Source: Thermomicrobiales bacterium (lineage in GTDB: Bacteria > Chloroflexota > Chloroflexia > Thermomicrobiales > UBA6265). From it: DNA of 64,000 bases. This document shows, one piece after another, positions 1,633-62,944 of the stretch. The stretch covers positions 27,827-91,826 of the forward strand of contig JAHBVL010000003.1 of assembly GCA_019637585.1 (NCBI GenBank). Direction: 5' to 3'. Numbering within the stretch: the first letter of the stretch is position 1; every line of letters begins with the position of its first letter. The position numbers were made by a program, and so were the translations under genes. Below the pieces are notes generated by a model. That model saw nothing but the letters and a program-made list of their open reading frames with translations. It was not told the DNA's origin and ran no database searches.

Positions 1633-1821
1633 TTAGCGTCCGGCCTTCAGTGCCGTCCGCATGCAGCGGGTGCACATCTTCACCGAGCGAGTCTGGCCAT
1701 CGACGACGACACGGCGATTCTGGACATTCGCGCTGAACGTCCGGTTGGTGCGTCGCTTCGAGTGACTCACATTGTGGCCAAAGCTCTTCGTTTTTCCGCA
1801 GATCTCGCATGCTCCGGCCAT
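1633..1821 (-). CDS. rpmB: 50S ribosomal protein L28
   Basis: 62-aa ORF with CEICGK...CTRC zinc-ribbon pattern and basic composition typical of L28; GAGGGAG RBS upstream. Confidence 0.85.
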   Translation of the reverse strand: MAGACEICGKTKSFGHNVSHSKRRTNRTFSANVQNRRVVVDGQTRSVKMCTRCMRTALKAGR

Positions 1822-1998
1822 CGTGCCGCTCCCTCATCGGCGCGGACACCTCCGCGCAAAGCCATGAATTGCAACGTCAACGCACCCGGAAACGGGCGCG
1901 AACACTGGATTTTACCCGCAGGGAGAGGAGGATTCAAGGGAATTGGGAATTAGTAGCTGGTAACTGGCAGCTGGTCATTGAGAAGCGGGAGCCGCCGC

Positions 1999-2076
1999 CT
2001 GCTGCCGACTGCTGACTGCTGACTGCCGACTGCTGACTGCTGACTACCGACTGCCGACTGCCGACTGCCGACTGCT
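1999..2076. repeat. Tandem heptanucleotide array (ctgccga/ctgctga, about 11 units), preceded by a second heptamer run (agctggt, 1954-1980)
   Basis: Direct reading: ctgctgccgactgctgactgctgactgccgactgctgactgctgactaccgactgccgactgccgactgccgactgct. Confidence 0.8.
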
Positions 2077-2085
2077 AAAGTACAC

Positions 2086-4575
2086 TTGTTCGGTTATCAA
2101 CGGCCCCGACCTGTCTCTGAAGTTGTGCCACCACCAACCCGCACCTCCACTCCACCCAATCGAACGCTCACCCAGTCCTTGACCGACGCGCTCACCCTGT
2201 TGCGCGAGGAGTGGCGCGACGACTTCCGCGGCGCATATGCGTCTCGCGCGGTGAGGGCGATCCAGCATGCCCAGTCATTGACTTCCGACCAGGATCTCGC
2301 CTATGCCCTGGCCCGCGTCGAAGCGCAGATCGACACCTACATCGGCACACCGATCGATCAACGACAGCCACGACTGACGCCGATCGGCAACGAGATCAAA
2401 GCGATCCAGAAAAGAGTTACGTCCCGCAAGCCGGTCGCGCGCGCGCCCCAGGTCGCGGAGCCGGCAGTTCGCAAACCACGCCCTGCCGCGCGCCATCTCG
2501 ATCCGGAATCGCCCGTCGAGGTCCTGCCGAGGGTTGGACCTGTGGTTGCCAAAAAACTGGCCAAGCTCGGAATTCGCACCATCAGTGATGTTCTCCGCGA
2601 CGTTCCGCGGCGCCATATCGACTACTCCCAGATCATGAGCATCCGCGACGCCTCGAGTTTCGGCCGGCGCGGCGATGTGACGATCCGCGCCAGGATCGAA
2701 GAGATCACGCCGTACACCGGACCACCCGCTCGCGTGTCCGTGCGGCTCTCGGATCAGACCGGCGCGATGCGCGTCACCTGGTTCAACCGATATCTGGTCA
2801 ACCAACTGAAGATCGGCGACGAGATCGCCGTCAGTGGCACGGTCGAAGCGGCTTATAACGTGCCCAGCATGACCAATCCGGAATGGGAACGGTATGGCGA
2901 GACCCTCCTCTCGACCGGCCGGATGACTCCCGTCTACAACCTGACCCAGGGCGTCGCCCAGAAAACGATGCGGTCACTGAGCCGGGCGGCACTCGACTCG
3001 ACCCGCGCGACTGTCGCCGATCCCCTTCCCGCCGGCATTCGCGAACGCTTCGGCCTGATGCCCCTTGCCGCCGCCTACGAGGAAGCCCACTACCCGCAAT
3101 CAGAGCTGAACCGCCAGCAGGCAATCAAACGACTGGCCTTCGACGAACTCTTTCTCCTCCAGTTGGGCATGGTGCGGGTCAAGCAGAGTCGGGCTACCCG
3201 CAATGCGCCGACCTTCCGCATCGACGGCCACCTGCTGCAGAACTTTCGGCAGTCGCTGCCATTCGAGCTGACGACAGCCCAGAATCGCGCCCTTGAGGAG
3301 GTTCTGGTCGACCTGGCGTCCGGGAACCCGATGATGCGACTCCTGCAGGGAGACGTAGGCAGCGGCAAAACGGTCGTCGCGGCGATCGCGGCGCTGGTCG
3401 CCACAGACAACGGCATGCAGGCGGCGCTGATGTCCCCCACCGAGATCCTGGCCGAGCAACATGCCGCCACGTTCACGCGGCTCTACGAATCGATGCCCAT
3501 CGAAAGCAGACCGCGCGTGGGTTTGCTCACAGGCAGCGTTCCGGCCAAGCGCCGGCGGGAACTTCTCGCCGCGCTGGAAGATGGCGAGCTCGATATCCTG
3601 ATCGGCACGCAGGCGCTCATTCAGAAAGGGGTCGAATTCGGCAGTCTTGGATTGCTGATTGTCGACGAGCAGCACCGGTTTGGCGTCAGGCAACGCGCCC
3701 ATCTGCTTGCGGAACGAGACGGACTGGTTCCGCACGTCCTGGCCATGACCGCCACACCGATCCCCCGCACCCTGAACATGGTCCTCAACGGCGACACCGA
3801 GGTCTCGGTGATCGACCAGCTGCCTTCCGGACGTGTGCCGATCGAAACGCGCCGCTACACGCCCGACGAACGAGCGGCCGCCTACGACCTGGTTCGCACC
3901 GAAGTGGCGGCAGGGAGGCAGGTCTTCGTCATCTGCCCGCTGGTGGAAGAATCAGAAACATCGGACGCCAAAGCCGCGACGGCGGAAGCCGAACGGCTTC
4001 AGACCCAGGTTTTCCCGGAGCTGCGCGTCCAGGTGCTCCACGGCCGGATGCCGGCGAAGGAAAAGGACCGGATCATGACTGCTTTTCGCCATCAGGAGTT
4101 CGACATCCTGGTTTCGACATCGGTGATCGAGGTCGGCATCGACATTCCGAACGCCACGATCATGATGATCGAGGGCGCCAACCACTTCGGGCTGGCCCAG
4201 CTGCATCAGTTCCGGGGTCGGGTCGGCCGGGGCTCCCATCGATCCTACTGCTTGCTGATCGCTGATGATTCCTCCAACGACGCTGAACAGCGTCTGAGGA
4301 TGATGGTCGCGTCGAACGACGGTTTCGCCCTGGCCCAGAAGGACCTCGAGCTGCGCGGTCCGGGTGATTTCGTCGGAACGCGGCAAAGCGGGCTGCCGGA
4401 AATGCCGATCATGGCTGGTTCGTTCGATACTCGTGTTCTCGACGCGGCTCGGCGGGCTGCCGAGATGCTCCTGAAAGCCGATCCGGAGCTGGCGTCCGAG
4501 GAGCTGGCGCTCCTCCGTCAGCGGCTGGCGGCTTTTTGGGCGGACGCGGCGCCAGACATGCCGATGAGTACCTGA
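2086..4575 (+). CDS. recG: ATP-dependent DNA helicase RecG
   Basis: 829-aa ORF; Walker A LLQGDVGSGKTVVAAIAALVA, DEQHRFGV motif, wedge-like domain, C-terminal helicase motifs (QFRGRVGRG). About 140-aa Pro/Arg-rich N-terminal extension; the ORF-track start at 2086 is TTG, so the true start is uncertain. Confidence 0.85.
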   Translation: MFGYQRPRPVSEVVPPPTRTSTPPNRTLTQSLTDALTLLREEWRDDFRGAYASRAVRAIQHAQSLTSDQDLAYALARVEAQIDTYIGTPIDQRQPRLTPIGNEIKAIQKRVTSRKPVARAPQVAEPAVRKPRPAARHLDPESPVEVLPRVGPVVAKKLAKLGIRTISDVLRDVPRRHIDYSQIMSIRDASSFGRRGDVTIRARIEEITPYTGPPARVSVRLSDQTGAMRVTWFNRYLVNQLKIGDEIAVSGTVEAAYNVPSMTNPEWERYGETLLSTGRMTPVYNLTQGVAQKTMRSLSRAALDSTRATVADPLPAGIRERFGLMPLAAAYEEAHYPQSELNRQQAIKRLAFDELFLLQLGMVRVKQSRATRNAPTFRIDGHLLQNFRQSLPFELTTAQNRALEEVLVDLASGNPMMRLLQGDVGSGKTVVAAIAALVATDNGMQAALMSPTEILAEQHAATFTRLYESMPIESRPRVGLLTGSVPAKRRRELLAALEDGELDILIGTQALIQKGVEFGSLGLLIVDEQHRFGVRQRAHLLAERDGLVPHVLAMTATPIPRTLNMVLNGDTEVSVIDQLPSGRVPIETRRYTPDERAAAYDLVRTEVAAGRQVFVICPLVEESETSDAKAATAEAERLQTQVFPELRVQVLHGRMPAKEKDRIMTAFRHQEFDILVSTSVIEVGIDIPNATIMMIEGANHFGLAQLHQFRGRVGRGSHRSYCLLIADDSSNDAEQRLRMMVASNDGFALAQKDLELRGPGDFVGTRQSGLPEMPIMAGSFDTRVLDAARRAAEMLLKADPELASEELALLRQRLAAFWADAAPDMPMST

Positions 4576-5182: not shown

Positions 5183-5679
5183 CGAACGCGGTCTATCCTG
5201 GCAGTTTCGATCCCATCACACTCGGTCACGTCGATCTCGCCACACGGGCGGCGCGGCTCTTCGAGCATGTGACCGTCGGCATCTATACGCGATCGCAAAA
5301 ACCGGGCGCTCTTTTCGACCCGGAGAGACGGCTGAGCATGGCGCAGGATGCCCTGGCCCACATTCCGAACATCACCGTCGACAGCTTTTCCGGACTCACC
5401 GTCGATTTCGCTCGCGAGCATGGCGCCTCCGTGATCGTGCGGGGTTTGCGCGCTGTTTCCGACTTCGAATATGAGTTCAAGCTCACCCACATGAACCACC
5501 ACCTGGCCCCGGACATTGAAGTCGTCTGTCTGATGACCTCGTCGAAGCACTCTTTCGTCAGCTCCAGCTTCATTCGCGAGGTGGCCTCGCTGGGTGGCGA
5601 CGTGTCCGCGCTCGTACCGGGCAATGTGAATCTGGCGCTTCAGGAGCGTTTTGGCCTGCTTGCACCGGTTGGAGATTGA
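5179..5679 (+). CDS. coaD: Phosphopantetheine adenylyltransferase CoaD
   Basis: MTNAVYPGSFDPITLGHVDL N-terminus (T/HxGH nucleotidyltransferase motif); ATG at 5179 overlaps the rsmD stop (ATGA). The longer 4822..5679 ORF is an upstream in-frame artefact. Confidence 0.9.
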   Translation: MTNAVYPGSFDPITLGHVDLATRAARLFEHVTVGIYTRSQKPGALFDPERRLSMAQDALAHIPNITVDSFSGLTVDFAREHGASVIVRGLRAVSDFEYEFKLTHMNHHLAPDIEVVCLMTSSKHSFVSSSFIREVASLGGDVSALVPGNVNLALQERFGLLAPVGD

Positions 5680-5683
5680 GGGG

Positions 5684-6226
5684 ATGGACGCACCACGCCA
5701 GGCCAGACCAACCGAGGGTTTCGACGTCGAACCACATCCCGAAGAAGGCACGGCGGAGATCCTCTACGTCCTCGATCAGCTCGAGGACATGGTCGGCGTC
5801 AGCAAGCGGGTGCCGTTCAGCAACAAGGTCATGGTCGAGGAGGAGTTCTTTCTCGATCTCGTCGAACAGCTGCGCATCGCCATCCCGAACGAGGTCAGGC
5901 AGGCGCAGCGAGTCGTTCGCGACCGGGAGAGGATCATTGCCGAAGCGCAAATGGAAGCATCGCGCATTGTCGAAGCCGCCCGATCGCGGGCTGAATACCT
6001 GATCTCCGAACACGGCATCCTCAACGAAGCGCGCCAGCGCGCCGAGGATCTGCTCGAACAGGCCGAAGAGCGGAAGAAACGCGAGCTCGGCGAAATCGAC
6101 GTCTATGCCATGGAGCAGTTCAACCACGTCTCCCAGGCAATCCAGGATGGCCTGGACATCGTCGAGCGCGCCCTCCACGACACACTGGCCGAGATCGACC
6201 GCGCCAGGAATAGCGTCGGACGGTGA
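5684..6226 (+). CDS. Hypothetical coiled-coil protein (possibly DivIVA-like); function unknown
   Basis: ORF with GAGGGG RBS before the ATG at 5684; acidic N-terminus then a long Glu/Arg/Ala-rich helical region; no confident family assignment. Confidence 0.5.
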   Translation: MDAPRQARPTEGFDVEPHPEEGTAEILYVLDQLEDMVGVSKRVPFSNKVMVEEEFFLDLVEQLRIAIPNEVRQAQRVVRDRERIIAEAQMEASRIVEAARSRAEYLISEHGILNEARQRAEDLLEQAEERKKRELGEIDVYAMEQFNHVSQAIQDGLDIVERALHDTLAEIDRARNSVGR

Positions 6227-6232
6227 CGGGGC

Positions 6233-6349
6233 GGAGTCCGAGGTCCGGAGTCCGAAGTCCGTTGTCCGTTGTCCGTTGTCCGTTGTCCGTAGAAGCTTGG
6301 TTTCCCGGCGCATGTCGCCTGCTCGGGACTTCGGACTTCGGACTTCGGG
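6233..6349. repeat. Inverted pair of heptamer arrays (ggagtcc/gaagtcc/gttgtcc x8, and ggacttc x3) forming a long hairpin just after the stop of the coiled-coil gene
   Basis: Direct reading; gaagtcc units at 6233-6290 are complementary to ggacttc units at 6326-6346; a degenerate CC-rich heptamer run continues to about 6420. Confidence 0.85.
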
Positions 6350-6530
6350 CCAAATCTCCTCTCCGCCTTCCCGCCCATTCGCCTTTCCGCCTCCGTCCGT
6401 CTTGCCGACTCGCCGTCTCGTCCGTATACTTCCATTTCCTCGTCGGGCTCAGGTCCGGCGTTTTTTCCGTGGGTGACGAGCTGAACACCGGCGCGGCGTA
6501 CGTCGCGGCTGCACCTCCGGTTGGCACGAA

Positions 6531-7064
6531 GTGATGACGGGCATGGAACTCCAGAACGACACAGTGATCAACGTCGCCGCGTTGCTCCGCGAGCCGATGG
6601 GCGCCGCGCGCTCCCTCGACCTGCATCTGGAATCGCTGCCGCTCGACGACGTGCTGGTCGCCAGGGATTTCGAAGGGCAGATCCGGCTCACCCGGCTGTC
6701 CGACGACATTCTGGCGTCCATCAACGGGACGACAGCGGTGGAGCTCGAATGCCAGCGCTGCCTGGAACCCTTCATCCAGCCTGTGCAGGTGAAGTTTTCC
6801 CAGGAGTTTCGGATCGCGTACGATGTGCGCACCGGCGCCGGGCTTGCTGGTGAAACCGAGGAAGAGGACGAAGAGTTCGAAATCTCGGCTAATCACGAAC
6901 TCGACTTCCGGGAGCCGCTTCGGCAGGAAATCCTGATCGAGCTGCCCATGCGCCCCTCATGTGGCGAAAACTGCCCCGGACCGCCTCAGGTGGAACGGGG
7001 AGACGAAGACGAATCTATCGATGAGCGATTCGCCGCACTGTCGGCCCTGCTCGACGACGAATAG
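6531..7064 (+). CDS. yceD: YceD/DUF177 family protein (large ribosomal subunit accumulation protein)
   Basis: CQRCLEPF and C-terminal acidic region with SCGENCPG motif; lies immediately upstream of rpmF, the conserved yceD-rpmF arrangement. Confidence 0.8.
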   Translation: MMTGMELQNDTVINVAALLREPMGAARSLDLHLESLPLDDVLVARDFEGQIRLTRLSDDILASINGTTAVELECQRCLEPFIQPVQVKFSQEFRIAYDVRTGAGLAGETEEEDEEFEISANHELDFREPLRQEILIELPMRPSCGENCPGPPQVERGDEDESIDERFAALSALLDDE

Positions 7065-16451: not shown

Positions 16452-16596
16452 GGTGCATAGTTCATAGTTGATAGTGCATAGTTGATAGTTCATAGTTCAT
16501 AGAGGTCGTTGCCGATTCCCAAGCCAGTCCCATCACCTCACGACCAACCATGCACTATCTACTATTCACTATCTACTATCTACTATCCACTACCTC
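16452..16596. repeat. Inverted pair of heptamer arrays (catagtt/gatagtt x7, then actatct x6) forming a long hairpin between the priA stop and the def start
   Basis: Direct reading of strict 7-nt periodicity; the priA stop TGA sits at the edge of the right array. Confidence 0.85.
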
Positions 16597-20268: not shown

Positions 20269-21642
20269 ATGTCCAGTGCCGTTGCCGCACCCACTTTGCT
20301 CAACGATTACGAAGCAGCGTTTGCTGGTTCCAAAGCGCGCCTAGAACTCTCGCAGCAGAGTCTGGCCGGTGGTCTGGCGCATGATGGCCGCTACATCAAG
20401 CCCTTTCCGATTCAGATCGACCGCGCCGACGGCGCGCACAAATGGGATGTGGACGGCCACGAACTGATCGACTATGCCATCGGTCATGGATCGCTCATTT
20501 TGGGACACAACAACCCGGCCATCACCGCCGCCATGCACGCGCAGCTGGACAAGGGTACTCACTACAGCGCCGGCCATGAAGGTGAGATTCTCTGGGCCCA
20601 GCAGGTCCAGAAATTGATTCCCAGCGCTGAGCTGGTTCGCTTCACCGGATCAGGAACCGAATCGAACCTGCTGGCGATGCGGTTGGCTCGTGCCTACACC
20701 GGCAAACCGAGCGTGCTCAAGTTCGAAGGGCACTTTCACGGTTGGAGCGACTATCTGATCAAGGGCGAAAAACCGCCGTTCGAAGCGCCGGGCGCTCCCG
20801 GCGTGCCGGACGACGTGATGCGCACCGTTGCCGCGCTGCCGCCAGACGACATGGGCGCGGTCGAAGAACGGCTGGCGCAGGGGGATGTTGCCGTCATTCT
20901 CGTCGAACCAAGCGGTGGGTCCTGGTCGATGATTCCGCTGGCCGAGGGCACGTTGGCGTCGTTGCGCGACCTGGCAACCAAATATGGCGCCGTGCTCCTC
21001 TTTGATGAAGTCATCACCGGATTCCGCTGGGCGCCGGGTGGCGCGCAGGAGCGATTCGGCATCACTCCGGATCTGACCACCATGGCCAAGATCGTGGCGG
21101 GCGGTATGCCGGGTGGAGCCGTAGCCGGCAAAGCCGAGATCATGGAGTACCTCCTCTTCAAGGATGAGCCGGGCTGGAACGCCAAGAAGGTCATTCACCC
21201 CGGCACCTACAACGCCAACCCGCTGGCCGCCATCGCCGGCTATACCTGTCTGACGCAGTGCGAGGACCCAGCGGTCCAGCAGACCTGCGATCGACTTGCG
21301 GCCACGTTGCGGGCAGGGCTGAATACCGTTCTCGAAACACGTGGCATCGATGGCGCCTGCTGGGGCGAGAGTTCGGTGTTCCATCTGATTCTGGGAGAAA
21401 AGGTCAGCAACCGGACCGCCGGCGATCTCCGCGCGCCTGAAGGCGTCGCGCCCGCCACGTTGAAGGCCAGCGGACGGGCTGGTGTCGCCACCCCGATGCA
21501 TCTGGCCATGGCCCTGGAGGGCGTCGACCTCTTCAACGGCGGCGGTCTCCTGAGCACTCGACACACCGACGAGGACATCGCCTTCACCCTCAAAGCGTTC
21601 GACAACGCCCTGACCCGGCTCGTCGATTCAGGCTACCTCTAG
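20269..21642 (+). CDS. Class III aminotransferase (glutamate-1-semialdehyde aminomutase-like)
   Basis: 457-aa ORF with GSGTESNLLAMRLARAYTG, DEVITGFRW, MAKIVAGGMPGGA motifs typical of AT-III. Confidence 0.8.
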   Translation: MSSAVAAPTLLNDYEAAFAGSKARLELSQQSLAGGLAHDGRYIKPFPIQIDRADGAHKWDVDGHELIDYAIGHGSLILGHNNPAITAAMHAQLDKGTHYSAGHEGEILWAQQVQKLIPSAELVRFTGSGTESNLLAMRLARAYTGKPSVLKFEGHFHGWSDYLIKGEKPPFEAPGAPGVPDDVMRTVAALPPDDMGAVEERLAQGDVAVILVEPSGGSWSMIPLAEGTLASLRDLATKYGAVLLFDEVITGFRWAPGGAQERFGITPDLTTMAKIVAGGMPGGAVAGKAEIMEYLLFKDEPGWNAKKVIHPGTYNANPLAAIAGYTCLTQCEDPAVQQTCDRLAATLRAGLNTVLETRGIDGACWGESSVFHLILGEKVSNRTAGDLRAPEGVAPATLKASGRAGVATPMHLAMALEGVDLFNGGGLLSTRHTDEDIAFTLKAFDNALTRLVDSGYL

Positions 21643-21656
21643 GCGAACCCATTGGT

Positions 21657-21864
21657 GTAGCGGCGAGGCCTGCCTCGCTCGTCGGTCCGCGGTGGTCGCG
21701 ATGGGCAATGCAGGCATTGCCGCTACAGCTGGGCACGTAACACCACGGCGACGTGGGTCTTGCCCCGATATACAAGACCACCCCGTCGATGTAGCGCCGA
21801 GGCCTGCATCGCCCGTCGGTCCGCTGCGGTTGCGATCGGCAATGCAGGCATTGCCGCTACAGCT
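21657..21864. repeat. Two 75-bp direct repeats (21657-21731 and 21790-21864), each with terminal 8-bp inverted ends (gtagcggc/gccgctac) and a central perfect palindrome ggcaatgc-ag-gcattgcc; followed by a tttccca/tctacca heptamer run (21889-21925)
   Basis: Direct reading. Confidence 0.8.
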
Positions 21865-25984: not shown

Positions 25985-26152
25985 TCAATGGGCAATGGGG
26001 AATAGGCAAAGGGCTATGGGCAAGAGGCAAAAGGCAAAAGGCAAGAGGGAAGTGGGAGATGGGAAATAGCACACGCTCCCCTCTCCCGCGGTCGGGAGAG
26101 GGGCAGGGGGTGAGGGAAGATCGGTCGGGAGAGGGGCAGGGGGTGAGGGAAT
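25985..26152. repeat. Composite repeat (inverted copy): heptamer array gggcaat/aaaaggc (25985-26070), GC hairpin cccctctcccg-cggt-cgggagagggg, then two direct copies of tcgggagaggggcagggggtgaggga
   Basis: Direct reading; it is the reverse complement of the 48565-48727 element with few mismatches. Confidence 0.85.
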
Positions 26153-32680: not shown

Positions 32681-32856
32681 CTCAGGCCTCAGACGCCGGA
32701 CGCTGCTGATGCGAGGGGCTGGCACAGGGACCAGCCCGTACGGGCACCCCACTGTGGGTGCCCTTCTCATCCCCAGCGATGGCAGTCGGAGGCTTGACCG
32801 GATTGCTCATCGGGCGACAGATATGACCTTTGACAGCGATCTTATCGCCATGTAGC

Positions 32857-33010
32857 TGCAGACCCCCGTGTCTGCGATTGTATGGGAGACGCTGCCATCG
32901 CTCGCCACGATCCTCATTCGCAACAACCGCGACCCGGCATTGGCAAGCGAAGAGAAGTCGCCGCCAACGTATTCATTGTTTCCCTGAGAAAGCAGACACG
33001 GGCGTCTGCG
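32857..33010. repeat. Element bounded by 18-bp hairpin-forming inverted ends (gcagacccccgtgtctgc ... gcagacacgggcgtctgc) with a roughly 115-bp unique centre
   Basis: Direct reading; a second element with identical ends is at 62945-63089. Confidence 0.8.
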
Positions 33011-37903: not shown

Positions 37904-38281
37904 TCAGGCGGGTTTCAGCTCGTCGGGCAGCAGGGCGATACCGGCATCAGTCATCCGCCCCTCGGCGAGCAGATATCGCACGCGCTCCCGGTTGATGGCC
38001 GACCAGTTGCTTCCCGGTTTCCGAGGCACAAACCTGATCGCATAACGCCGTTCGTCGATCCCCTTGGTCTTGACATCGATCCAGCCGTGGCAGATCGCCA
38101 GATCGAGCAGCTCGTCGAAGGTCACCGTCTGCTGTTTGGAGCTCTTCTTGAAAATCTCCACCCAGATCTCGGACGCGGCCGTTCCGTGCTCGATCAGCCA
38201 GGCTTCGAACTCGGCGGCGCTGGCAATTGGTGTGGTTTGCAGTGGTTCCATCACGATCACCTCCCGCCCGTTCACCGTCAT
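37904..38281 (-). CDS. YdeI/OmpD-associated (DUF1801-like) family protein
   Basis: C-terminal core AICHGWIDVKTKGIDERRYAIRFVPRKPGSNWSAINRERV; the N-terminus of the ORF track (to 38401) is repeat-encoded, so the start is placed at 38281 (alt 38251). Confidence 0.5.
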   Translation of the reverse strand: MTVNGREVIVMEPLQTTPIASAAEFEAWLIEHGTAASEIWVEIFKKSSKQQTVTFDELLDLAICHGWIDVKTKGIDERRYAIRFVPRKPGSNWSAINRERVRYLLAEGRMTDAGIALLPDELKPA

Positions 38282-38655
38282 TCCGAGCGAAGCCGAGGAA
38301 TCTCTCGTTCGCTGCCCGTATCGTCGCGTTTGATGAGCCTCGCTGAACGGAACGAGAGATCTCTCCGCTTCGGTCGAGATGACCCGTTCGCTCGACTCCA
38401 CACTGTCATTCCGAGCGAAGCCGAGGAATCTCTCGCTCGCTACCCGTATCGTCGCGTTTGATGAGCCTCGCTGAACGGAACGAGAGATCTCTCCGCTTCG
38501 GTCGAGATGACCCGTTCGCCCGACTCCACACTGTCATTCCGAGCGAAGCCGAGGAATCTCTCGTTCACCACTCGTATCGTCGCATTTGAAGAGCCTCGCT
38601 GAACGGAACGAGAGATCTCTCCGCTTCGGTCGAGATGACAGGTGCGGTCGAGATG
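38277..38655. repeat. Three head-to-tail copies of a 128-bp palindromic unit (gtcattccgagcgaagccgaggaatctctcgttc ... gaacgagagatctctccgcttcggtcgagatgac)
   Basis: Direct reading; unit starts at 38277, 38405 and 38533; copies are more than 90% identical. Confidence 0.9.
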
Positions 38656-48564: not shown

Positions 48565-48727
48565 TCCCTCACCCCCAACCCCTCTCCCGACCGGAGATAT
48601 CCCTCACCCCCAACCCCTCTCCCGACCGCGGGAGAGGGGAGTACGTGCTATTTCCCATTTCCATTTGCTCACCGCCCATTTCCCATTTCCCATTTCCTAT
48701 TTCCCTTTACCCCTTGCCCTTTGCCTG
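48565..48727. repeat. Composite repeat (forward copy): two direct copies of tccctcacccccaacccctctcccgacc, GC hairpin cccctctcccg-accg-cgggagagggg, then heptamer array tttccca/ttgccct (48648-48727)
   Basis: Direct reading; inverted copy at 25985-26152 and a shorter copy at 61394-61475. Confidence 0.85.
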
Positions 48728-50175
48728 GTATGGAATGATTTGTCAACCCAGCGGGCGCCTGTCCTTCTTTCAGTCGTCGTCGTTCTCCTTTCGTTCATGA
48801 TCGTGCTCGTGTGGCGCAGTGTGGTGAAACCGGCGGACGACCCACCAGGTCCAGCGACGATGGATCACCCTGGTATACGCGGATTGGCTACCGCATGATC
48901 ATGATCCGTCTGGGGCTGCCTCGCTCTTTGGGCGCGGATTGGGTACCGCAAGGCAAAGGCCGAGGGTTCCCCGACATCGGCTGCGGCTCCTCCGCCGGCA
49001 TCACCACACCACGCTGTTCGGTGTCAGGCACTCCTCCCAAGCTGTCCAATCGCCCAGATGAAACCAGCCAGCGCCCGGGCCACGGCAATGATCGCCACCT
49101 GCCGCGGTTTACCCCGATTGACCAGTTTCCAGTAGATCGTGTGCAAGCGGACCCTCGCCTTGTGGGCGATCTCTTCCGCCGGGGTTGTCGGCTTCGGTCG
49201 GTTGCTCCCTTTATAGGGTCGTGTGTAGTGCCAGGCCGCCTCCACCAGCAGGAAGCGCAGGTGGGCATTGCCCGTCCGGGTGATCGATCCCCGGCTCTGC
49301 CGACCTCCGCTGGAGTGCTCCCGGGGCACCGTTCCGTTGTAGGCCATGTAGGCCGGCGCCGAGTCAAAGCGGGTCAGATCACCCGACTCGGCCACAATCC
49401 CGGCTGCCGTCACCACGCCCACCCCATGCAGGGCTTGCAGATTGACCATGGTCTCGGCCATGCTGCTCTCCAGGCTGGCGGTCGTCAGGGCCGCCGTCAA
49501 CCGCTTCACCCGGTCTTCCGCACTCCGCACCGCCTGCCGATCATCCTCCAGCACGAACTGGGCGGTGGCGTCCGGAACGGTCACCTCCTCCAGCCACCGC
49601 CACCACCGTTGCGTCCATCGCGATCCTGCCGGTTCCGTCACCCCCTGCTGGGTCAGCAACTTCAACAGCCGTTGCCGCTGCCGGTGTTGATCGCGCACCG
49701 CCTGCTCGCGGGCTCGCGACAGCGCCCGAAATCCCTCCAGCTCCCGACTCGGCAGCGGCACCGCCGTCAGCAACCCCGTGCTTAGCAGGTGCGCCAACTG
49801 CCGCGCGTCCCGCCGGTCGTTCTTGATCCGGTCTCCCGGTCGTCGCGGGATCAGCGCCGGCGCCACCACCACGCAGGCAATCTCCATCTTCGCTAGCTGT
49901 CGGGCGATCCCATAGCCGCACGGTCCCGCTTCGTAGCAGACCCTCAGCTCCTCTCGCGCTCCCCAGCTGGGCACCCGTTTGGCCAGCTGGTCCGGTCGAT
50001 TCGGAAAGGTCCCCAGTTCTCGAATCTCCCCATCCGCCGTGATCGCCGCCGCTGTGATCGTCTCCTTATGCGCATCCAGTCCAATCCATGTGCTACCGTG
50101 TGCCATGACCGATCTCCTGTCGCGTGTAGCTCGGCGCGCCCTGTGCGCGCAACCTACGATAGTTCGCGTCCACGG
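48725..50175 (-). mobile_element. IS110-family insertion sequence (boundaries approximate)
   Basis: Contains the IS110 transposase gene; imperfect inverted ends atggaatga (48727-48735, 50163-50171); both sides abut heptamer-repeat sequence (ttgccct... left, ttttgcc... right). Confidence 0.6.
49024..50106 (-). CDS. IS110 family transposase (DEDD-type)
   Basis: 360-aa ORF MAHGSTWIGLDAHKETI...N-terminal DEDD domain and C-terminal Transposase_20-like region characteristic of IS110. Confidence 0.85.
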   Translation of the reverse strand: MAHGSTWIGLDAHKETITAAAITADGEIRELGTFPNRPDQLAKRVPSWGAREELRVCYEAGPCGYGIARQLAKMEIACVVVAPALIPRRPGDRIKNDRRDARQLAHLLSTGLLTAVPLPSRELEGFRALSRAREQAVRDQHRQRQRLLKLLTQQGVTEPAGSRWTQRWWRWLEEVTVPDATAQFVLEDDRQAVRSAEDRVKRLTAALTTASLESSMAETMVNLQALHGVGVVTAAGIVAESGDLTRFDSAPAYMAYNGTVPREHSSGGRQSRGSITRTGNAHLRFLLVEAAWHYTRPYKGSNRPKPTTPAEEIAHKARVRLHTIYWKLVNRGKPRQVAIIAVARALAGFIWAIGQLGRSA

Positions 50176-50185
50176 GGTCGGTCAT

Positions 50186-50232
50186 TCCATTGTCTCTTTT
50201 GCCTTTTGCCTTTTACCCTCCGCCCCGTACGT
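50186..50232. repeat. Short heptamer array ttttgcc x2-3 (rc of the ggcaaaa family) at the right flank of the IS110 element
   Basis: Direct reading: tctcttttgccttttgccttttaccctccgcc. Confidence 0.7.
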
Positions 50233-50278: not shown

Positions 50279-52354
50279 ATGCCCCGCTGGTTGCCCGAGC
50301 AAAGCCAGATCACTGCTCCAGACATCGCCTCGCGCATCGCCGGGACGCTGAATGCGCTTCGCGACCAGATCCTCCTGAGGACGGCCGGCCGGGAGAGTGC
50401 CGACCGTCGCTGGGCAACGCGGTGGATGAGCCTCTTCTGGTCGATCGCCATCGGCATCATCGCCACGCTGCTGCCGCTGAGTATCCTGGCCGTCCTCCGG
50501 CCGGCCGCCGACGCGCCAGTCGGCGCCATCCTGGCCATTGTGCTGGTGGCGCTGGTCGCGTATGTCGCCGACTGGAAGGGTGGATCGGCCAGCATTGCCG
50601 CGGCAGCCATTGTCATCTCCCGCTGGGCCGTCAAGGACGGAGCCGAACCCGAGATCGCCATGCGCTATCTCATCACCTCCCTGCTGGTCGCCGGCATCGC
50701 CATCGTCGCCCTCATCGAACGACTCAAAACCGAGGGATCGATCGACCGCCAGGAAGCGCTTGCCGCGCGGTCCGCGGCCACGGCCTTGGCAGCCGTCGAA
50801 ACGGTAGCCGCAACCCACCAGAAACTCAGCCCCGACGCCCGCACCCAGCTTCATCACGCCATTGTGCGCTCAGTCGTCGGCGTCAACCGGGCGCATGCGG
50901 GCGCTCTCGTGCTGGCCGATCCGGAATCGGGAGATCTCGAACCCGCCGCCCTGTATGGCTTCGGCGCCAACGCGGAAGAGGCCCTGCGGGCAGACGCCGC
51001 GACCGATGACGGATTCGTCGCCCGGATACGTCAGGAACGGCGCACCCTTCAGCTGAGCGGTATTCAGCGCACGTCCGGCGATCGCTACGCGGGAGTGCGC
51101 CGCACCCGCGTGAAGTCGATGCTCGGCTCGCCGGTGATCTCGCAGGACGACATGGTCCTCGGCGTCATTCTGGTCGGGTTGCTCGTCGATCATCATTTCA
51201 CCCCCCGTGAAGTCCGCAAACTCGATGCGCTGGCGTCGCAGGTCGCCTCGATTCTGGAAACGATGAGCGTCATGGACCGGCGGGAGTTCCAGCTGCAACA
51301 GGCCCAGGACGAGCAACGCCGGTTGGAGCAGGTCATCGCCACCGTACCGGAAGCGTTGATCGTTTCGGCCCCTCCGTCCGGGGAGATCATCGCCATGAAC
51401 GAAGCTGCTCAGGAGCTCTTCCGCGGCGTCGACTCCGGATCGATCCTGCTCAGCGTCAAACCGGTCGACACCGACGACAGCATCCTCTCCCCCACCGAGC
51501 GGGCGCTGACCTTCGGTGAGAGCGCAAATGATGTGGAGTGCCTGATCGAGCGGTCCGAAACCGACAAAATCCCGGTCCTGGCGAGCGCCGCGCCTATTCG
51601 CGATGACGAAGGAACAGTGGTCGCTGTCGTCTCGGCGTTCCGAGATATCAGCGCGCTCAAGGAAGCGGCGAGATTGAAGGACGAATTCGTCTCCGTCGTC
51701 TCGCACGAGCTCCGCTCGCCTCTGACCCCCATCCGGGGTTTCGTACAGCTCGTCGCACGTGACCTCTCCCGTGAGGGTGGGCACGATACGCAGGTGCACC
51801 GGCTCGAATCGGTTTCGGGACACGTCGACCGGCTCACCCGCCTCGTCGACGATCTCCTCGATGTCTCACGGCTCCGGTCCGGGACGCTGGAAATCCGCCC
51901 GGTTCCGACTGACCTCGTCGACCTGACGAAAAAAGTGGTCGAGGCCTGGGCAGGTGGCACGTCTCCCGTGGCCATCACACTGGAATCCGATGAAACGTCG
52001 CTGGAGGGCCATTGGGATCCCGACCGGATTCACCAGGTGCTCGACAATCTGGTGATCAACGCCGTCAAGTACAGCCCACCGGGCGCCGCGGTGGTCATGT
52101 CACTCTCGCGCGAGGAAAACGCAGCGGTGATCGGCGTGAAGGACCAGGGACCAGGTATCGACGACGTCCAGAAAGCCGAAATCTTCGGCGCTTTCTATCG
52201 AACCCCCGATGCTCGCGAGGGTCAGGTTCAGGGTCTGGGTCTGGGACTCTTCATCTGCCAGGCGCTCGTCGCCGAACACGGCGGCTCGATCGATCTGGTA
52301 TCAGCTCCGGGAGAAGGTTCGACGTTTATCGTCAGGTTGCCGACTAGTGCATAG
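50279..52354 (+). CDS. Sensor histidine kinase (TM, GAF, PAS, HisKA, HATPase_c)
   Basis: N-terminal TM helices, GAF-like and PAS-like regions, H-box SHELRSPL, then N/G1/G2 boxes (NAVKYS, DQGPGI, GLGLGL). Confidence 0.8.
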   Translation: MPRWLPEQSQITAPDIASRIAGTLNALRDQILLRTAGRESADRRWATRWMSLFWSIAIGIIATLLPLSILAVLRPAADAPVGAILAIVLVALVAYVADWKGGSASIAAAAIVISRWAVKDGAEPEIAMRYLITSLLVAGIAIVALIERLKTEGSIDRQEALAARSAATALAAVETVAATHQKLSPDARTQLHHAIVRSVVGVNRAHAGALVLADPESGDLEPAALYGFGANAEEALRADAATDDGFVARIRQERRTLQLSGIQRTSGDRYAGVRRTRVKSMLGSPVISQDDMVLGVILVGLLVDHHFTPREVRKLDALASQVASILETMSVMDRREFQLQQAQDEQRRLEQVIATVPEALIVSAPPSGEIIAMNEAAQELFRGVDSGSILLSVKPVDTDDSILSPTERALTFGESANDVECLIERSETDKIPVLASAAPIRDDEGTVVAVVSAFRDISALKEAARLKDEFVSVVSHELRSPLTPIRGFVQLVARDLSREGGHDTQVHRLESVSGHVDRLTRLVDDLLDVSRLRSGTLEIRPVPTDLVDLTKKVVEAWAGGTSPVAITLESDETSLEGHWDPDRIHQVLDNLVINAVKYSPPGAAVVMSLSREENAAVIGVKDQGPGIDDVQKAEIFGAFYRTPDAREGQVQGLGLGLFICQALVAEHGGSIDLVSAPGEGSTFIVRLPTSA

Positions 52355-52478
52355 TTGATAGTGCATAGTTGATAGTGCATAGTTCATAGCAGATAGTTGA
52401 TAGTGCGTGGTAGCTGCTCGACGGACGCAATCTATCGACCATCAACTATCGACTATCGACTATGAACTATGAACTACC
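52347..52478. repeat. Inverted pair of heptamer arrays (catagtt/gatagtg x8, and rc units aactatc/gactatc/gaactat x6) between convergent genes; the stop codons of both flanking genes lie inside the arrays
   Basis: Direct reading; same heptamer family as 16452-16596. Confidence 0.85.
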
Positions 52479-54498
52479 GATACCTCACCCGACTCGGCAT
52501 CGGGCGCCGCACGGGGATCATCCGGGTCTTGCGCCTCGACAATCCCTGCGAGATCAGCAGTCCGGCTGAGATGAGCGCAATCAGCGCCAGGAGACCGACG
52601 AGGAAGGGGTTGTACGAGCGGGTCGATCCAACCACCATCGGCGCGGGAACTCCCACCACATAGCGTGAAAGCTCGGTGACCTCGGTCGTGACGCTCCCCT
52701 GATCGGCATCGACGACTGGCATCAGCTTGGCCATCGCTCCATCGATGCGATAGATCCTGGCCGAGGGGTCGGAGCTTGCGGAGTCGAGGGCGATTGTGAG
52801 TTGCGCGGGAGCCGTCAGCGGCTCGGCGGCGGTTCCGTCCGCTGCACTGAACGCCACATCGAACGCGGTTCCCGGTACGAGCGTCACCCCATTGATCGCG
52901 GGAAGATCGTGATCGGCGATCGGTTTCAGCATCACGGTCGTCTGGTCGACCAGCGCACCCTGCGGCACGATGATCCGGGCCCCAGCGGGATTCTCCAGAA
53001 CACCACCAGGACTGCCCATCGAGAGGGCCACGATACCGTCGGCGCCAGTCGCTGGTCCGAGATCGGCTTCGGCGGCCGCGTTGGCCTTGGCGGCCGAATC
53101 CTGAGCGCTCGCCGCCGACGCGACGGTCACATCGCCGCTCTCCGCGACGGCCGACTGAATGCCATACCCATAGTCAGGAGCATTCGCCTCCGGTCCGCCG
53201 CTGGCGTCGCCAGAGAAACCGGACGGATTGGCAATCGCCCGCAACACGACCGATGGATCGACGCCAACGACGCCGGTGCCGTCTCCCATCAACCCACTGT
53301 CGATCTCTTCGGCGGCAGCCTCGTCGACATTGCCATCGACGTCTTCGGTGACGGCATCGACCGCGCATTCGTCGAGGAAGGTGTCGCTCATATCGAAAAC
53401 AGAGAGGTAGTAGGTACCCGGTTCATCCGGAGCCAGCCACCCGAGGACCGCCGATGAGTTCCGGGAGAGCGTGCCTCCCAGGTTGGCATCTCCCTCGGCA
53501 GTCGTATCGAACCCCGTGTTTGGCGATTCCGCCGGGAAGAGCCCGCCGGAGGCCACAACCACCATCGAGCCGCTGCCGGAAAGCACGATCTGCCCACGAT
53601 GCCCGATGGTGACCGCAGGCGGGCACTCCAGGGTCGCTTCGACACTCTCCCCTTCGGAAAGGAACCCCTCCAGGTAGGTGCTGGAACTGCCCAGCTCAGC
53701 GCCGGATTCGGGGTCGTACGCCACAAAGTAGATCTTCGCGTCCGATTCGTACTGCGGGGCAACCCAGTCGGTTGTGCCCCCCGCTTCAAGGATGACGGTG
53801 TTCTCGCCCGTTGCCGTGAAGTACCCATCCTGCGCCGTCAGCAGCACGTTTCCTTCGCCAGTGACGCCGATCGCGGCAGTCTGGCCGGACTGGACGGTGG
53901 CCGGAGCGCCGATCGTCACCGAGCGGCCCGAGGGCACATCGACCGGGCCGCCGTTTCCTTCGTTGCTGCCGGATGCCGGCGGCGTGACCAACACCAGACT
54001 ATTGGCCAGCGACAGCGAATCCGAACCGGTCATATTCTGGCTGTCGACCGTGTAGACCACGTTGCCGATCTTCCAGTAGACGAGATCGTAAGCCGGGGTC
54101 TGATCGCGCCACGCCGGGTAACCCATCACGGTGGCGTTCTGCTGCAGTTGGTTGTTTCGGTCGTAGATCGAGTAAGCCGGAATCGTGCCGCCCGCTTCAC
54201 CCGCCACCCGTAAATAGGTGACCGGGGCGCCGGGAATCAGCCAGTAGAAGCTGTAGAAACCGCTGTACGCCTGAATCTCCGGCTCACCACCGAACGGGGA
54301 AGGAATCCAGGAGGGCGCATAGACATTGATGCCTACGGCGAGTCTCGACGCCGACCCCGAGCTCAGCCAGTCGGGATTCTGCGCGGACTGAAATGCGCCG
54401 GATTGCGGCTGATTTGGCGCCGCCAGAAGCGTTCCGGGAGTTCCCAGCAGAATCAGCGCCGCGCAAAGGAGTACGAGCCAGCGGTGACGGAAGTTCAT
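52474..54498 (-). CDS. Large secreted/cell-surface protein of unknown function (signal peptide plus C-terminal TM anchor)
   Basis: 674-aa ORF; N-terminal signal MNFRHRWLVLLCAALILLGTPGTLLAAP; Gly/Ser/Thr/Ala/Val-rich beta-like body; C-terminal hydrophobic helix followed by RRKTR. Confidence 0.55.
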   Translation of the reverse strand: MNFRHRWLVLLCAALILLGTPGTLLAAPNQPQSGAFQSAQNPDWLSSGSASRLAVGINVYAPSWIPSPFGGEPEIQAYSGFYSFYWLIPGAPVTYLRVAGEAGGTIPAYSIYDRNNQLQQNATVMGYPAWRDQTPAYDLVYWKIGNVVYTVDSQNMTGSDSLSLANSLVLVTPPASGSNEGNGGPVDVPSGRSVTIGAPATVQSGQTAAIGVTGEGNVLLTAQDGYFTATGENTVILEAGGTTDWVAPQYESDAKIYFVAYDPESGAELGSSSTYLEGFLSEGESVEATLECPPAVTIGHRGQIVLSGSGSMVVVASGGLFPAESPNTGFDTTAEGDANLGGTLSRNSSAVLGWLAPDEPGTYYLSVFDMSDTFLDECAVDAVTEDVDGNVDEAAAEEIDSGLMGDGTGVVGVDPSVVLRAIANPSGFSGDASGGPEANAPDYGYGIQSAVAESGDVTVASAASAQDSAAKANAAAEADLGPATGADGIVALSMGSPGGVLENPAGARIIVPQGALVDQTTVMLKPIADHDLPAINGVTLVPGTAFDVAFSAADGTAAEPLTAPAQLTIALDSASSDPSARIYRIDGAMAKLMPVVDADQGSVTTEVTELSRYVVGVPAPMVVGSTRSYNPFLVGLLALIALISAGLLISQGLSRRKTRMIPVRRPMPSRVRYR

Positions 54499-62880: not shown

Positions 62881-62944
62881 TGCATTTGCCATCGGATGGT
62901 GACGGCGCCACAGGGCTGAGTCACCCTTCATCTTCCTAGTAGTT

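What the first reader, a model, noticed from the sequence alone, without database searches (positions are those of the whole stretch)
6233..6349. Intergenic hairpins built from tandem heptanucleotide repeats (gaagtcc family)
Eight tandem units (ggagtcc/gaagtcc/gttgtcc) are followed after 33 nt by three units of the exact complement (ggacttc). This predicts a 21-bp or longer repeat-built stem directly after the stop of the coiled-coil gene and upstream of the yceD-rpmF-fab operon. The same architecture recurs with unrelated heptamer families at 16452-16596, 52347-52478, 1954-2076, 25985-26070 and 48648-48727. That points to a genome-wide class of periodic 7-nt repeat hairpins, conceptually like cyanobacterial STRR heptamer repeats but here in a high-GC non-cyanobacterial genome. 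Their function (terminators, processing sites, recombination or copy-choice hotspots) is unknown.
Basis: seen in the sequence. Interest (0 to 1): 0.7.

Follow-up and report, generated by a model that had tools for sequence, protein, structure and literature searches.

The report
Paired 7-base repeat arrays forming hairpins
The flagged site is a real pair of inverted 7-base microsatellite arrays that can fold into a 20-bp hairpin just after a gene, but it belongs to a known, fast-evolving class of bacterial intergenic heptamer repeats, here in a Thermomicrobiales (Chloroflexota) genome, with no sign of a conserved function.

Summary
Eight heptamers (6233-6288) and three GGACTTC units (6326-6346) predict a 20-bp stem, 6 nt after the coiled-coil gene's stop and upstream of the yceD-rpmF promoter.

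Period 7 is specific: 9 runs in 64 kb, against 0-1 for other periods and 0.03 in simulations. Inverted-pair hairpins are clear at three of the six listed sites and weak at 1953-2076. Sites 25986 and 48650 are single arrays beside an unrelated REP-like hairpin.

The genome is Thermomicrobiales. At the same intergenic site, relatives carry no array (91%, 85%, 77% protein identity) or a hairpin pair built from a different heptamer (L002, L004, L050). Three related genomes share one orthologous array with different unit variants.

(GGACTTC)x3 occurs in at least 120 metagenome contigs of 31-70% GC. No T-run follows the hairpins. Some pairs lie in a divergent promoter region or inside an operon.

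This is a new member of the known bacterial heptamer-repeat class (STRR, Xanthomonas GGGAATC inverted pairs, Chloroflexus (GATAGRA)n). It most likely arises by slippage plus inverted duplication, with incidental RNA-hairpin effects.

Side finding: an IS110-family element sits in GGCAAAR heptamer sequence in all five copies examined (both flanks seen in four).

The parts
6233..6288 (+). Left heptamer array, 8 units: GGAGTCC GAGGTCC GGAGTCC GAAGTCC (GTTGTCC)x4. It begins 6 nt after the stop codon (6224-6226) of the coiled-coil gene (5651-6226).
6289..6325 (+). Unique 37-nt spacer between the arrays. With the unpaired GTTGTCC units it forms the large internal loop of the hairpin. It has no exact match in the metagenome collection.
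6326..6349 (+). Right array, (GGACTTC)x3 followed by GGG. It is the complement of GAAGTCC.
   Evidence: I16, I20
6242..6261 (+). 5' arm of the predicted 20-bp stem (GGTCCGGAGTCCGAAGTCCG).
6332..6351 (+). 3' arm of the predicted 20-bp stem (CGGACTTCGGACTTCGGGCC). It is followed by AAATCTCC, so there is no T-run.
6402..6466 (+). Downstream boundary of the element, not part of it. It holds the conserved yceD-rpmF promoter TTGCCG-17-TATACT (6402-6430) and a conserved leader hairpin with T6 (6441-6466). Relatives that lack the arrays keep both features.
1953..1975 (+). Site A, short left array (GTAGCTG GTAACTG GCAGCTG). It lies between the divergent genes rpmB (1633-1821, minus strand) and recG.
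2002..2076 (+). Site A, right array (CTGCCGA/CTGCTGA) x10.6, with a 21-nt higher-order period. Only its 3' end pairs weakly with 1953-1975.
16456..16502 (+). Site C, left array (CATAGTT/GATAGTG). It lies between the priA stop (16597) and the def start (probably 16426), both on the minus strand.
16553..16592 (+). Site C, right array (CACTATC/TACTATC). It is the complement of the left array and ends 4 nt from the priA stop codon.
52345..52406 (+). Site D, left array (TAGTGCATAGTTGA)x4.4. It contains the TAG stop codon (52352-52354) of the histidine-kinase gene.
52432..52480 (+). Site D, right array (CTATCGA/CTATCAA/CTATGAA). It mirrors the left array and overlaps the stop codon of the convergent minus-strand ORF 52474-54498.
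   Evidence: I8
25986..26067 (+). Site E, a single G-rich array (GGGCAAT/GGCAAAG/GGCAAAA/GGGAAAT) with no inverted partner. It adjoins the REP-like hairpins at 26076-26151.
48650..48727 (+). Site F, a single array of the same family on the other strand (ATTTCCC/CCCTTTG). It follows the REP-like hairpins at 48565-48646 and is interrupted at about 48728 by an IS110-family element.
50185..50225 (+). The continuation of the site F family (TTTTGCC x3) on the far side of the IS110-family element.
   Evidence: (I7, I17)

Best explanation
The feature is a palindromic pair of heptanucleotide microsatellite arrays. It is one instance of the widespread bacterial class of intergenic 7-nt tandem repeats (STRR-like long simple sequence repeats), here in a Thermomicrobiales genome that is unusually rich in them.

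Shown:
- The arrays are period-7 specific and strictly outside genes.
- They belong to a few unit families that recur within the genome and in related genomes.
- They often occur as inverted pairs.
- They are gained, lost and remodelled between relatives, while the neighbouring promoter and genes stay conserved.

Inferred:
- Arrays grow and turn over by replication slippage or unequal exchange in 7-nt register. The evidence is blocks of variant units and 14- and 21-nt higher-order periods.
- Pairs arise by inverted duplication (template switching), because variant units occur in mirrored order at site D.
- The two arms then diverge independently. At the flagged site, four GTTGTCC units have no partner.
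- Arrays fill whatever intergenic space selection leaves free. That space is mostly the stretch from the stop codon to the next promoter or start codon.

When transcribed, the site at 6233-6349 would form a 20-bp stem in the 3' region of the coaD/coiled-coil transcript. Any effect is probably incidental and REP-like: a barrier to 3' exonucleases, an RNase III substrate, or a partial transcription block without a U-tract. It is unlikely to be a selected, conserved function.
For: - Period specificity: 9 period-7 runs in the window against 0-1 for other periods and 0.03 simulated. In 1.15 Mb of related loci, 33 period-7 runs against 0-11 for other periods.
- Location: no array lies inside a Pfam-supported gene, though site D's arrays overlap the stop codons of the two flanking ORFs.
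- Higher-order periods and blocks of variant units occur within arrays.
- Mirrored order of variant units and long stems occur at site D. Arms have diverged at sites B and C.
- Turnover at the flagged intergenic site: the relatives at 91%, 85% and 77% protein identity (L081, L001, L003) have no array but keep the promoter and leader hairpin. L002 has a GGCAATA pair, L004 a GCAGGCG pair and L050 a GTGAGAA pair. L033 has (GTTGCCA)x8.
- The orthologous array in L054, L055 and L056 has the same family but different variant units.
- The rpmB-recG spacer carries different arrays in the window, L002, L009 and L013.
- Inverted partners are found for about 20 of 49 arrays. Complement scores are 15-25, against a null maximum of 12.
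- The unit is not special. (GGACTTC)x3 occurs in at least 120 metagenome contigs of 31-70% GC, which often carry other heptamer families. Same-composition control heptamers are comparably frequent in viral contigs: 10 hits against 2-9.
- The published Xanthomonas arrays show the same anatomy, and no function was found for them (PMC4692102). Chloroflexus aurantiacus has (GATAGRA)n satellites (PMC6749651).
Against: - Slippage alone does not explain why a few unit families recur at separate loci in one genome with unrelated loops. Examples are sites C and D in the window and the two TAGCCGG pairs in L018.
- Slippage alone also does not explain why the period is 7.
- The sense-strand RNA folds about 10 kcal/mol better than the antisense at sites B, C and L004, because the mismatches are G.U on the sense strand. 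This hints at RNA-level selection, but n = 3.
- Hairpin pairs recur at this same spacer in four lineages.
- No transcript data, strain-level data or whole-genome sequence for this organism was available.
Confidence: 0.62

Rival explanations
1. The hairpins are selected RNA elements: terminators without a U-tract, insulators or mRNA 3'-end stabilisers. They would sit between the coaD/coiled-coil unit and the yceD-rpmF-fab unit, and similarly after priA and between convergent genes. Heptamer repeats would simply be this clade's way of building long stems.
For: - The stems are very stable (z -3.8 to -7.3).
- Outer arms abut stop codons within about 10 nt at sites B, C and D and in L002, L004, L018 and L033.
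- Hairpin pairs with different units sit at the same spacer in the window, L002, L004 and L050. Their arms stay mutually complementary.
- The sense strand folds better at sites B, C and L004.
Against: - No T-run follows any of the hairpins. The only terminator-like site in 6000-6700 is the conserved leader hairpin at 6441-6466.
- The closest relatives manage without any hairpin at this spacer.
- Site A lies between divergent genes.
- The L018 pairs lie between recG, rsmD and coaD, with the next start codon 5-20 nt after the right arm. Termination there would cut off downstream genes.
- The arms are decaying or unequal: 8 units against 3, and 3 against 10.
- The rate at this spacer (about 5 of 70 loci) is not clearly above my rough per-spacer average of about 3%, estimated.
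Confidence: 0.22
2. The arrays are made or spread by a dedicated mechanism rather than passive slippage. Candidates are a sequence-programmed enzyme, a templated addition process or a mobile element. That mechanism would seed genome-specific heptamer families, often as palindromic pairs, at many loci.
For: - The same family occurs at separate loci with unrelated loops.
- Families are shared between genomes at non-orthologous sites. GGCAAAR occurs in the window, L002, L009 and on the flanks of L339-L342. GAAGTCG-like units occur in L054 and L055.
- Array density differs sharply between close relatives. The window has 9 arrays in 64 kb. The 91%-identity relative has none in its 14 kb, nor in five shorter contigs that carry the same protein.
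- The literature reports hundreds of same-unit arrays per genome with no evident mechanism (PMC4679880, PMC4692102).
Against: - No conserved termini, target-site duplications or conserved internal sequence were seen, so these are not MITE-like.
- No candidate gene was identified.
- The unit is no more frequent than same-composition controls.
- Variant-unit blocks look like ordinary satellite evolution.
Confidence: 0.12
3. The repeats are a chance low-complexity run or an assembly artefact.
For: Short-read assemblies often break at such arrays. L033 ends inside one, and the IS contigs end at them.
Against: - Simulations expect 0.03 period-7 runs against 9 observed.
- Comparable arrays occur in many independent assemblies, including long-read MAGs and orthologous positions.
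Confidence: 0.01

Closest known systems
Xanthomonas GGGAATC and Nostoc GGGGA(C/T)T intergenic heptamer repeats (Rehm et al. 2015, PMC4692102)
   Same: - Both are tandem 7-nt units, mostly intergenic.
- Both lie much closer to the end of the upstream ORF than to the next gene.
- Many occur as convergent inverted pairs able to form stem-loops.
- Length and sequence vary between related species at the same intergenic sites.
- No function is known.
- The window's GGCAAAG/GGGAAAT family is similarly G-rich.
   Different: - The flagged GAAGTCC family has no G-runs, so it has no G-quadruplex potential.
- Several distinct unit families coexist within 64 kb, rather than one dominant family.
- The host phylum is different (Chloroflexota, Thermomicrobiales).
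Cyanobacterial STRR heptamers (CCCCAGT, TTGGTCA, CAACAGT; Calothrix/Nostoc). The unit sequences are from my own knowledge; the repeats are cited in PMC4692102.
   Same: - Both are tandem heptanucleotide arrays of several families.
- Both are dispersed in non-coding DNA.
   Different: - The unit sequences differ.
- The host is not a cyanobacterium.
- Inverted pairing is prominent here.
Chloroflexus aurantiacus (GATAGRA)n heptamer-derived satellites, 14-nt family Fam_1_14_23 (Subirana and Messeguer 2019, PMC6749651)
   Same: - The host belongs to the same phylum.
- Both are heptamer-derived arrays with a 14-nt higher-order period, scattered through the genome.
- The window's GATAGTG/CATAGTT family at sites C and D shares the GATAG core and the 14-nt period.
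   Different: - The host belongs to a different class.
- The paper does not describe inverted-pair hairpins.
- Sequence relatedness was not tested beyond the shared core.
Beggiatoaceae, cyanobacterial and Bacteroidetes TAACTGA direct repeats (MacGregor 2015, PMC4679880)
   Same: - Both are intergenic heptamer direct repeats.
- In both, one unit is present across distant phyla with no evident transfer mechanism. (GGACTTC)n is likewise found across contigs of 31-70% GC.
   Different: - TAACTGA sets are mostly short (2-6 copies), lie just upstream of start codons and are almost never inverted.
- The arrays here are mostly after stop codons and often paired.
Enterobacterial REP/BIME extragenic palindromes (from my own knowledge). 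This is a functional analogue only.
   Same: - Both are stable extragenic hairpins just after stop codons, including inside operons.
- Both are variably present between strains.
- Both are targets of IS110/IS1111-family insertion sequences.
   Different: - REPs are single conserved palindromes of about 35 nt, mobilised by RAYT transposases.
- They are not built from tandem heptamers.
- No RAYT gene or conserved palindrome sequence is associated with the heptamer pairs here.

Membership tests
Bacterial intergenic heptanucleotide SSR arrays (long SSRs, STRR-like in the broad sense) | Head-to-tail tandem units of exactly 7 nt, at least 3 copies | tested here: met
   TRF and direct reading give 8 units and 3 units at 6233-6349, and up to 10.6 units at 2002-2076.
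Bacterial intergenic heptanucleotide SSR arrays (long SSRs, STRR-like in the broad sense) | Period 7 over-represented relative to neighbouring periods and to chance | tested here: met
   The window has 9 period-7 runs against 0-1 for other periods, and 0.03 in simulations. Related loci have 33 against 0-11.
Bacterial intergenic heptanucleotide SSR arrays (long SSRs, STRR-like in the broad sense) | Strong bias to non-coding DNA | tested here: met
   All window arrays lie between Pfam-supported or GC3-supported ORFs. Two overlap only stop codons.
Bacterial intergenic heptanucleotide SSR arrays (long SSRs, STRR-like in the broad sense) | Length and sequence polymorphism between related genomes at the same locus | tested here: met
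   Presence/absence and unit change are seen at the coiled-coil/yceD spacer. Variant-unit turnover is seen in the orthologous array of L054, L055 and L056.
STRR in the strict sense (cyanobacterial) | Units CCCCAGT, TTGGTCA or CAACAGT in heterocystous cyanobacteria | tested here: not met
   The units are GAAGTCC, CTGCCGA, CATAGTT and GGCAAAG. Homologues place the genome in Thermomicrobiales.
Xanthomonas-type inverted heptamer pairs | Two arrays of the same unit in convergent (inverted) orientation close together | tested here: met
   This holds at sites B, C and D in the window and in L002, L004, L018 (twice) and L050.
Xanthomonas-type inverted heptamer pairs | G-tract units (GGGANTN) able to form G-quadruplexes | tested here: not met
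   GAAGTCC, GGAGTCC and GTTGTCC have no GGG runs. Only the GGGCAAT/GGGAAAT family at 25986 and 48650 has them.
Intrinsic (Rho-independent) terminator | Compact GC-rich stem-loop followed at once by a U-tract | tested here: not met
   The right arm is followed by GGGCCAAATCTCC. The scan of 6000-6700 finds only the separate leader hairpin at 6441-6466. Sites C and D also have no T-run in either direction.
Intrinsic (Rho-independent) terminator | Position at the 3' end of a transcription unit | tested here: inconclusive
   This holds for site B and site D (convergent genes). It fails for site A (divergent genes). Site C (priA-def) and the L018 pairs lie inside apparent operons. No transcript data were available.
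MITE or other non-autonomous transposon | Conserved internal sequence, defined terminal inverted repeats and target-site duplications among copies | tested here: not met
   Same-family pairs (C against D, and L018 3105-3231 against 3769-3877) share only the heptamer units. Their loops are unrelated, and no target-site duplication is seen.
REP/BIME (RAYT-associated) | A conserved palindrome of about 20-40 nt in many copies, with an associated RAYT transposase | tested here: not met
   The heptamer stems differ in sequence from site to site. I saw no RAYT-like gene, but only 18 of the window's ORFs were scanned against Pfam. A separate REP-like family does exist, at 26076-26151, 48565-48646 and 61402-61440.
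Known structured RNA families (Rfam 15) | A match to a curated covariance model | tested here: not met
   Only tRNA-Leu passes at gathering threshold in the window. Nothing meaningful appears at E<=1 in 6150-6600.

The most novel reading that the evidence does not exclude
Heptamer arrays may not be passive slippage products. A still-unknown, sequence-programmed mechanism could seed genome-specific 7-nt families, often as palindromic pairs, at many intergenic sites across distant phyla. The arrays would in turn act as genomic landing pads for RNA-guided IS110-family elements. All five copies of one such IS examined here sit in GGCAAAR heptamer sequence (both flanks seen in four).
Probability: 0.12. 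Interest if true: 0.75.

Novelty: new member of a known kind. Interest (0 to 1): 0.3.

Why it matters
- It extends the little-studied class of bacterial heptamer repeats to Thermomicrobiales.
- It gives clean comparative evidence at orthologous sites. Arrays come and go and change unit sequence, while the two arms of a pair stay complementary to each other.
- That pattern is a useful constraint on the open questions of why the period is 7, why unit families are genome-specific and why pairs are inverted.
- In practice, these arrays break short-read assemblies.
- They also appear to be preferred insertion sites for at least one IS110-family element.

Tried and rejected
- **Exact-protein look-ups.** Searches for YceD and L32 found no record, so the source genome is not in the collections.
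- **Loop search.** The unique 22-mer from the loop of the flagged hairpin gave 0 hits in metagenomes, so same-species copy-number polymorphism could not be assessed.
- **REP pattern search.** My first pattern had the wrong loop length and returned nothing. The repeat finder then located the family.
- **Period controls in viral contigs.** The hexamer-derived 21-mer gave 105 hits and is confounded by in-frame coding repeats. The octamer-derived 21-mer gave 1. I do not lean on these.
- **GC3-based gene caller.** My own caller mis-assigns some starts and antisense ORFs, for example coaD and the AAA gene. I used it only for distances to stop codons and a rough spacer count.
- **Shared AGTC/AGTT core.** I considered a common core across families. 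The families found in 239 metagenome arrays are too diverse, so I dropped the idea.
- **Special status of GAAGTCC.** Rejected, because same-composition control heptamers are comparably frequent.
- **Other classes rejected.** These were canonical terminator, MITE, REP, CRISPR, G-quadruplex (for the flagged family) and known Rfam RNA. Reasons are in the membership table.
- **Strand asymmetry of folding.** The result is suggestive but rests on three informative cases.

Full report
**Observation**

Direct reading and Tandem Repeats Finder confirm the flagged sequence.
- The left array is GGAGTCC GAGGTCC GGAGTCC GAAGTCC (GTTGTCC)x4 at 6233-6288.
- A unique 37-nt spacer follows.
- The right array is (GGACTTC)x3 at 6326-6346.

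The left array starts 6 nt after the TGA stop codon (6224-6226) of a 191-aa coiled-coil ORF. That ORF has no Pfam match, and some sources name its homologues as ATP synthase b-like.

As RNA, the region folds into an uninterrupted 20-bp stem, 6242-6261 with 6332-6351. It has 18 Watson-Crick pairs and 2 G.U pairs. The free energy is -62.2 kcal/mol, z -3.8, and none of 200 shuffles folds as well. The four GTTGTCC units are left unpaired.

Period 7 is specific and well above chance.
- With a fixed 21-nt criterion, the window has 9 period-7 runs, against 0-1 for each of periods 4-6 and 8-12.
- First-order Markov simulations give a mean of 0.03.

**The other listed sites**

All of them contain heptamer arrays, but the architecture varies.
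- 16456-16592 (z -7.3) and 52345-52480 (z -7.2) are strong array-versus-array hairpins.
- 1953-2076 pairs only weakly (z -1.6). Three left units pair with the 3' end of a 10.6-unit right array.
- 25986-26067 and 48650-48727 are single arrays with no partner. Each lies next to a different, REP-like hairpin, CCCCTCTCCCG..CGGGAGAGGGG. That hairpin family also occurs at 61402-61440. The two sites are inverted copies of one composite element.

The families are not all unrelated.
- Sites C (16456) and D (52345) share CATAGTT/GATAGTG with a 14-nt period.
- Sites 25986, 48650 and 50196 share GGCAAAR/GGGAAAT.

**Gene context**

| Site | Coordinates | Flanking genes |
|---|---|---|
| B (flagged) | 6233-6349 | After the recG-rsmD-coaD-coiled-coil genes; 53 nt upstream of the yceD-rpmF-fabH promoter TTGCCG-17-TATACT (6402-6430) |
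| C | 16456-16592 | Between the priA stop and the def start, both on the minus strand |
| D | 52345-52480 | Fills the spacer between a histidine kinase and a convergent ORF; overlaps both stop codons |
| A | 1953-2076 | Between divergent rpmB and recG |

No T-run follows any of the hairpins.

**Organism and relatives**

Homologues of the coiled-coil protein place the window in Thermomicrobiales, phylum Chloroflexota. The genome itself is not in the searchable collections.

Eighty related genome loci cover 1.15 Mb. Period 7 again dominates there, with 33 runs against 0-11 for other periods. With six further contigs fetched for the closest relative (86 related loci in all), about 20 of 49 arrays have a complementary partner within 400 nt. 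Their ungapped complement scores are 15-25, against a null maximum of 12.

**The orthologous spacer**

This is the most informative comparison. The -35 box, the -10 box and a leader hairpin with a T-run are conserved in all genomes compared. The arrays appear as insertions between the stop codon and the -35 box.

| Locus | Protein identity to window | Content of the spacer |
|---|---|---|
| L081 | 91% | No array |
| L001 | 85% | No array |
| L003 | 77% | No array |
| L002 | 88% | (GGCAATA)n pair; the array begins at the stop codon |
| L004 | 67% | (GCAGGCG)n pair |
| L050 | 52% | GTGAGAA/TTCTCAC pair |
| L033 | 52% | (GTTGCCA)x8; the contig ends in the array |

Other loci show the same behaviour.
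- The rpmB-recG spacer carries different arrays in the window, L002, L009 and L013.
- L054, L055 and L056 share one orthologous array upstream of rsmD. The family is the same, but the variant units differ (AGCCAAC, AGCCGAT, AGCTGAT, AGCCAAT). This is direct evidence for satellite-like turnover.
- In L018, (TAGCCGG)n hairpin pairs occupy both the recG-rsmD and the rsmD-coaD spacers. The upstream stop codon lies inside the left arm, and the next start codon lies 5-20 nt after the right arm.

**Breadth**

Their GC content ranges from 31 to 70%. Many carry several other heptamer families on the same contig. Of 239 arrays on these contigs, 48 have an inverted partner.

In viral contigs the unit gives 10 hits. 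Four same-composition control heptamers give 2-9 hits. The unit is therefore not special.

**Literature**

- Over-representation of heptamers among bacterial simple sequence repeats was noted in 2007, as cited in PMC4692102.
- Xanthomonas has about 185 GGGAATC arrays per genome, 89-93% of them intergenic. They lie on average 28 nt from the upstream ORF and 160 nt from the downstream one. There are 70-75 inverted convergent pairs. Arrays vary between species, and no function was found.
- Chloroflexus aurantiacus has 22 satellites derived from (GATAGRA)n, with a 14-nt family scattered through the genome (PMC6749651).
- TAACTGA repeats occur across distant phyla with no evident transfer mechanism (PMC4679880).
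- I found no description of such repeats for Thermomicrobiales.

**Interpretation**

The feature is a new member of a known class. The data best fit this sequence of events:
1. Arrays grow and turn over by slippage in 7-nt register. The evidence is variant-unit blocks and 14- and 21-nt super-periods.
2. Pairs originate by inverted duplication. The evidence is the mirrored order of variant units at site D.
3. The two arms then drift independently. Examples are the 8-against-3 unit counts at site B and the regular mismatches at site C.
4. Arrays fill the spacer that selection leaves free, which is mainly the stretch just after stop codons.

A selected terminator or stabiliser role is possible, and some evidence points that way.
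- The stems are stable and abut stop codons.
- The sense strand folds about 10 kcal/mol better than the antisense in three of three informative cases.

Other evidence weakens it.
- There are no U-tracts.
- Close relatives lack the hairpin at the same spacer.
- One site lies between divergent genes, and some pairs lie inside operons.
- A conserved canonical hairpin with a T-run lies 90 nt downstream.

A dedicated generating mechanism cannot be excluded. The same families recur at separate loci with unrelated loops. Array density also differs sharply between close relatives: 9 arrays in 64 kb here, and none in 14 kb of the 91%-identity relative.

**Side finding**

ORF 49024-50106 (minus strand) encodes an IS110-family transposase. 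The element spans about 48728-50194 and interrupts the GGCAAAR array. I examined five copies: the window's and four from other samples, with 78-94% protein identity.
- All share the same ends.
- All sit in GGCAAAR or GGCAATG heptamer sequence on every flank that the contigs cover (both flanks in four copies, one flank in L341).
- A variable segment in the 3' non-coding region (CCTTTGCC, CGTTTGCC or CAATTGCC) is complementary to the right flank. This makes it a candidate bridge-RNA guide.

At least one heptamer family therefore appears to serve as an IS target.

**Verdict**

- Novelty is low to moderate (a new member of a known kind), and I score interest at 0.3.

Noticed in passing
window 48728-50194 (transposase ORF 49024-50106, minus strand); also L339-L342: An IS110-family element has DEDD_Tnp_IS110 and Transposase_20 domains and ends GACAATGGAATGACC...AAATCATTCCATAC. 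It is inserted inside the GGCAAAR heptamer array. All five copies examined (78-94% protein identity, from different samples) sit in GGCAAAR or GGCAATG units on every flank that the contigs cover (both flanks in four, one in L341). A variable segment about 70 nt downstream of the transposase stop (CCTTTGCC, CGTTTGCC or CAATTGCC) is complementary to the right flank, so it may be a bridge-RNA target guide. Most contigs that carry homologues are about 1.3-1.9 kb, which means assemblies break at the flanking arrays.
   Followed up: partly
window 6402-6466; L001, L002, L003, L006, L015, L017, L018, L021, L034, L035, L046, L048, L050, L064, L081: A conserved promoter TTGMCG-17/18-TATACT is followed about 10 nt later by a conserved hairpin CG(Y)CGGG..CCCGGCG and a T-run, in the 5' leader of yceD-rpmF. 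It looks like an attenuator or leader element. The stem sequence is conserved with little covariation. There is no Rfam match.
   Followed up: partly
window 26076-26151, 48565-48646, 61402-61440: A dispersed REP-like family: the hairpin CCCCTCTCCCG-(acc/cgg)-CGGGAGAGGGG with flanking CCCTCACCCCC, in 1-3 tandem copies per site. It is joined to heptamer arrays at two of the three sites.
   Followed up: partly
window 38273-38639: A 128-nt unit repeated 2.9 times in tandem (88-97% identical to the first copy). Each unit contains GTCATTCCGAGCGAAGCCGAGGAATCTC and GAGATCTCTCCGCTTCGGTCGAGATGAC hairpin-like motifs. It lies between two minus-strand ORFs.
   Followed up: no
window 6355-6425: A pyrimidine-rich (C/T) tract with a loose 8-nt period (CCTTTCCG, CCGTCTCG). 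It lies between the heptamer hairpin and the yceD promoter and overlaps the promoter's -35 box. It is absent from relatives that lack the arrays.
   Followed up: no
window 21641-21730 and 21775-21864; 32682-32797; 32844-32891, 62939-62963 and 63056-63103: Other repeats: a 90-nt direct repeat (86% identity), a 116-nt palindromic region after the ORF that ends at 32680, and a dispersed motif GCAGACCCCCGTGTCTGC found in both orientations.
   Followed up: no
L018 3105-3231 and 3769-3877: Two (TAGCCGG)n hairpin pairs with unrelated loops sit in consecutive short spacers of the recG-rsmD-coaD gene row. The upstream stop codon TAG lies inside each left arm. The next start codon lies 5-20 nt after each right arm, with no obvious ribosome-binding site at rsmD.
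   Followed up: partly
window 52340-52354: The last codons and the stop of the histidine-kinase gene (..P T S A *) are encoded by the first units of the heptamer array. This suggests that the array has overwritten the gene's original 3' end.
   Followed up: no
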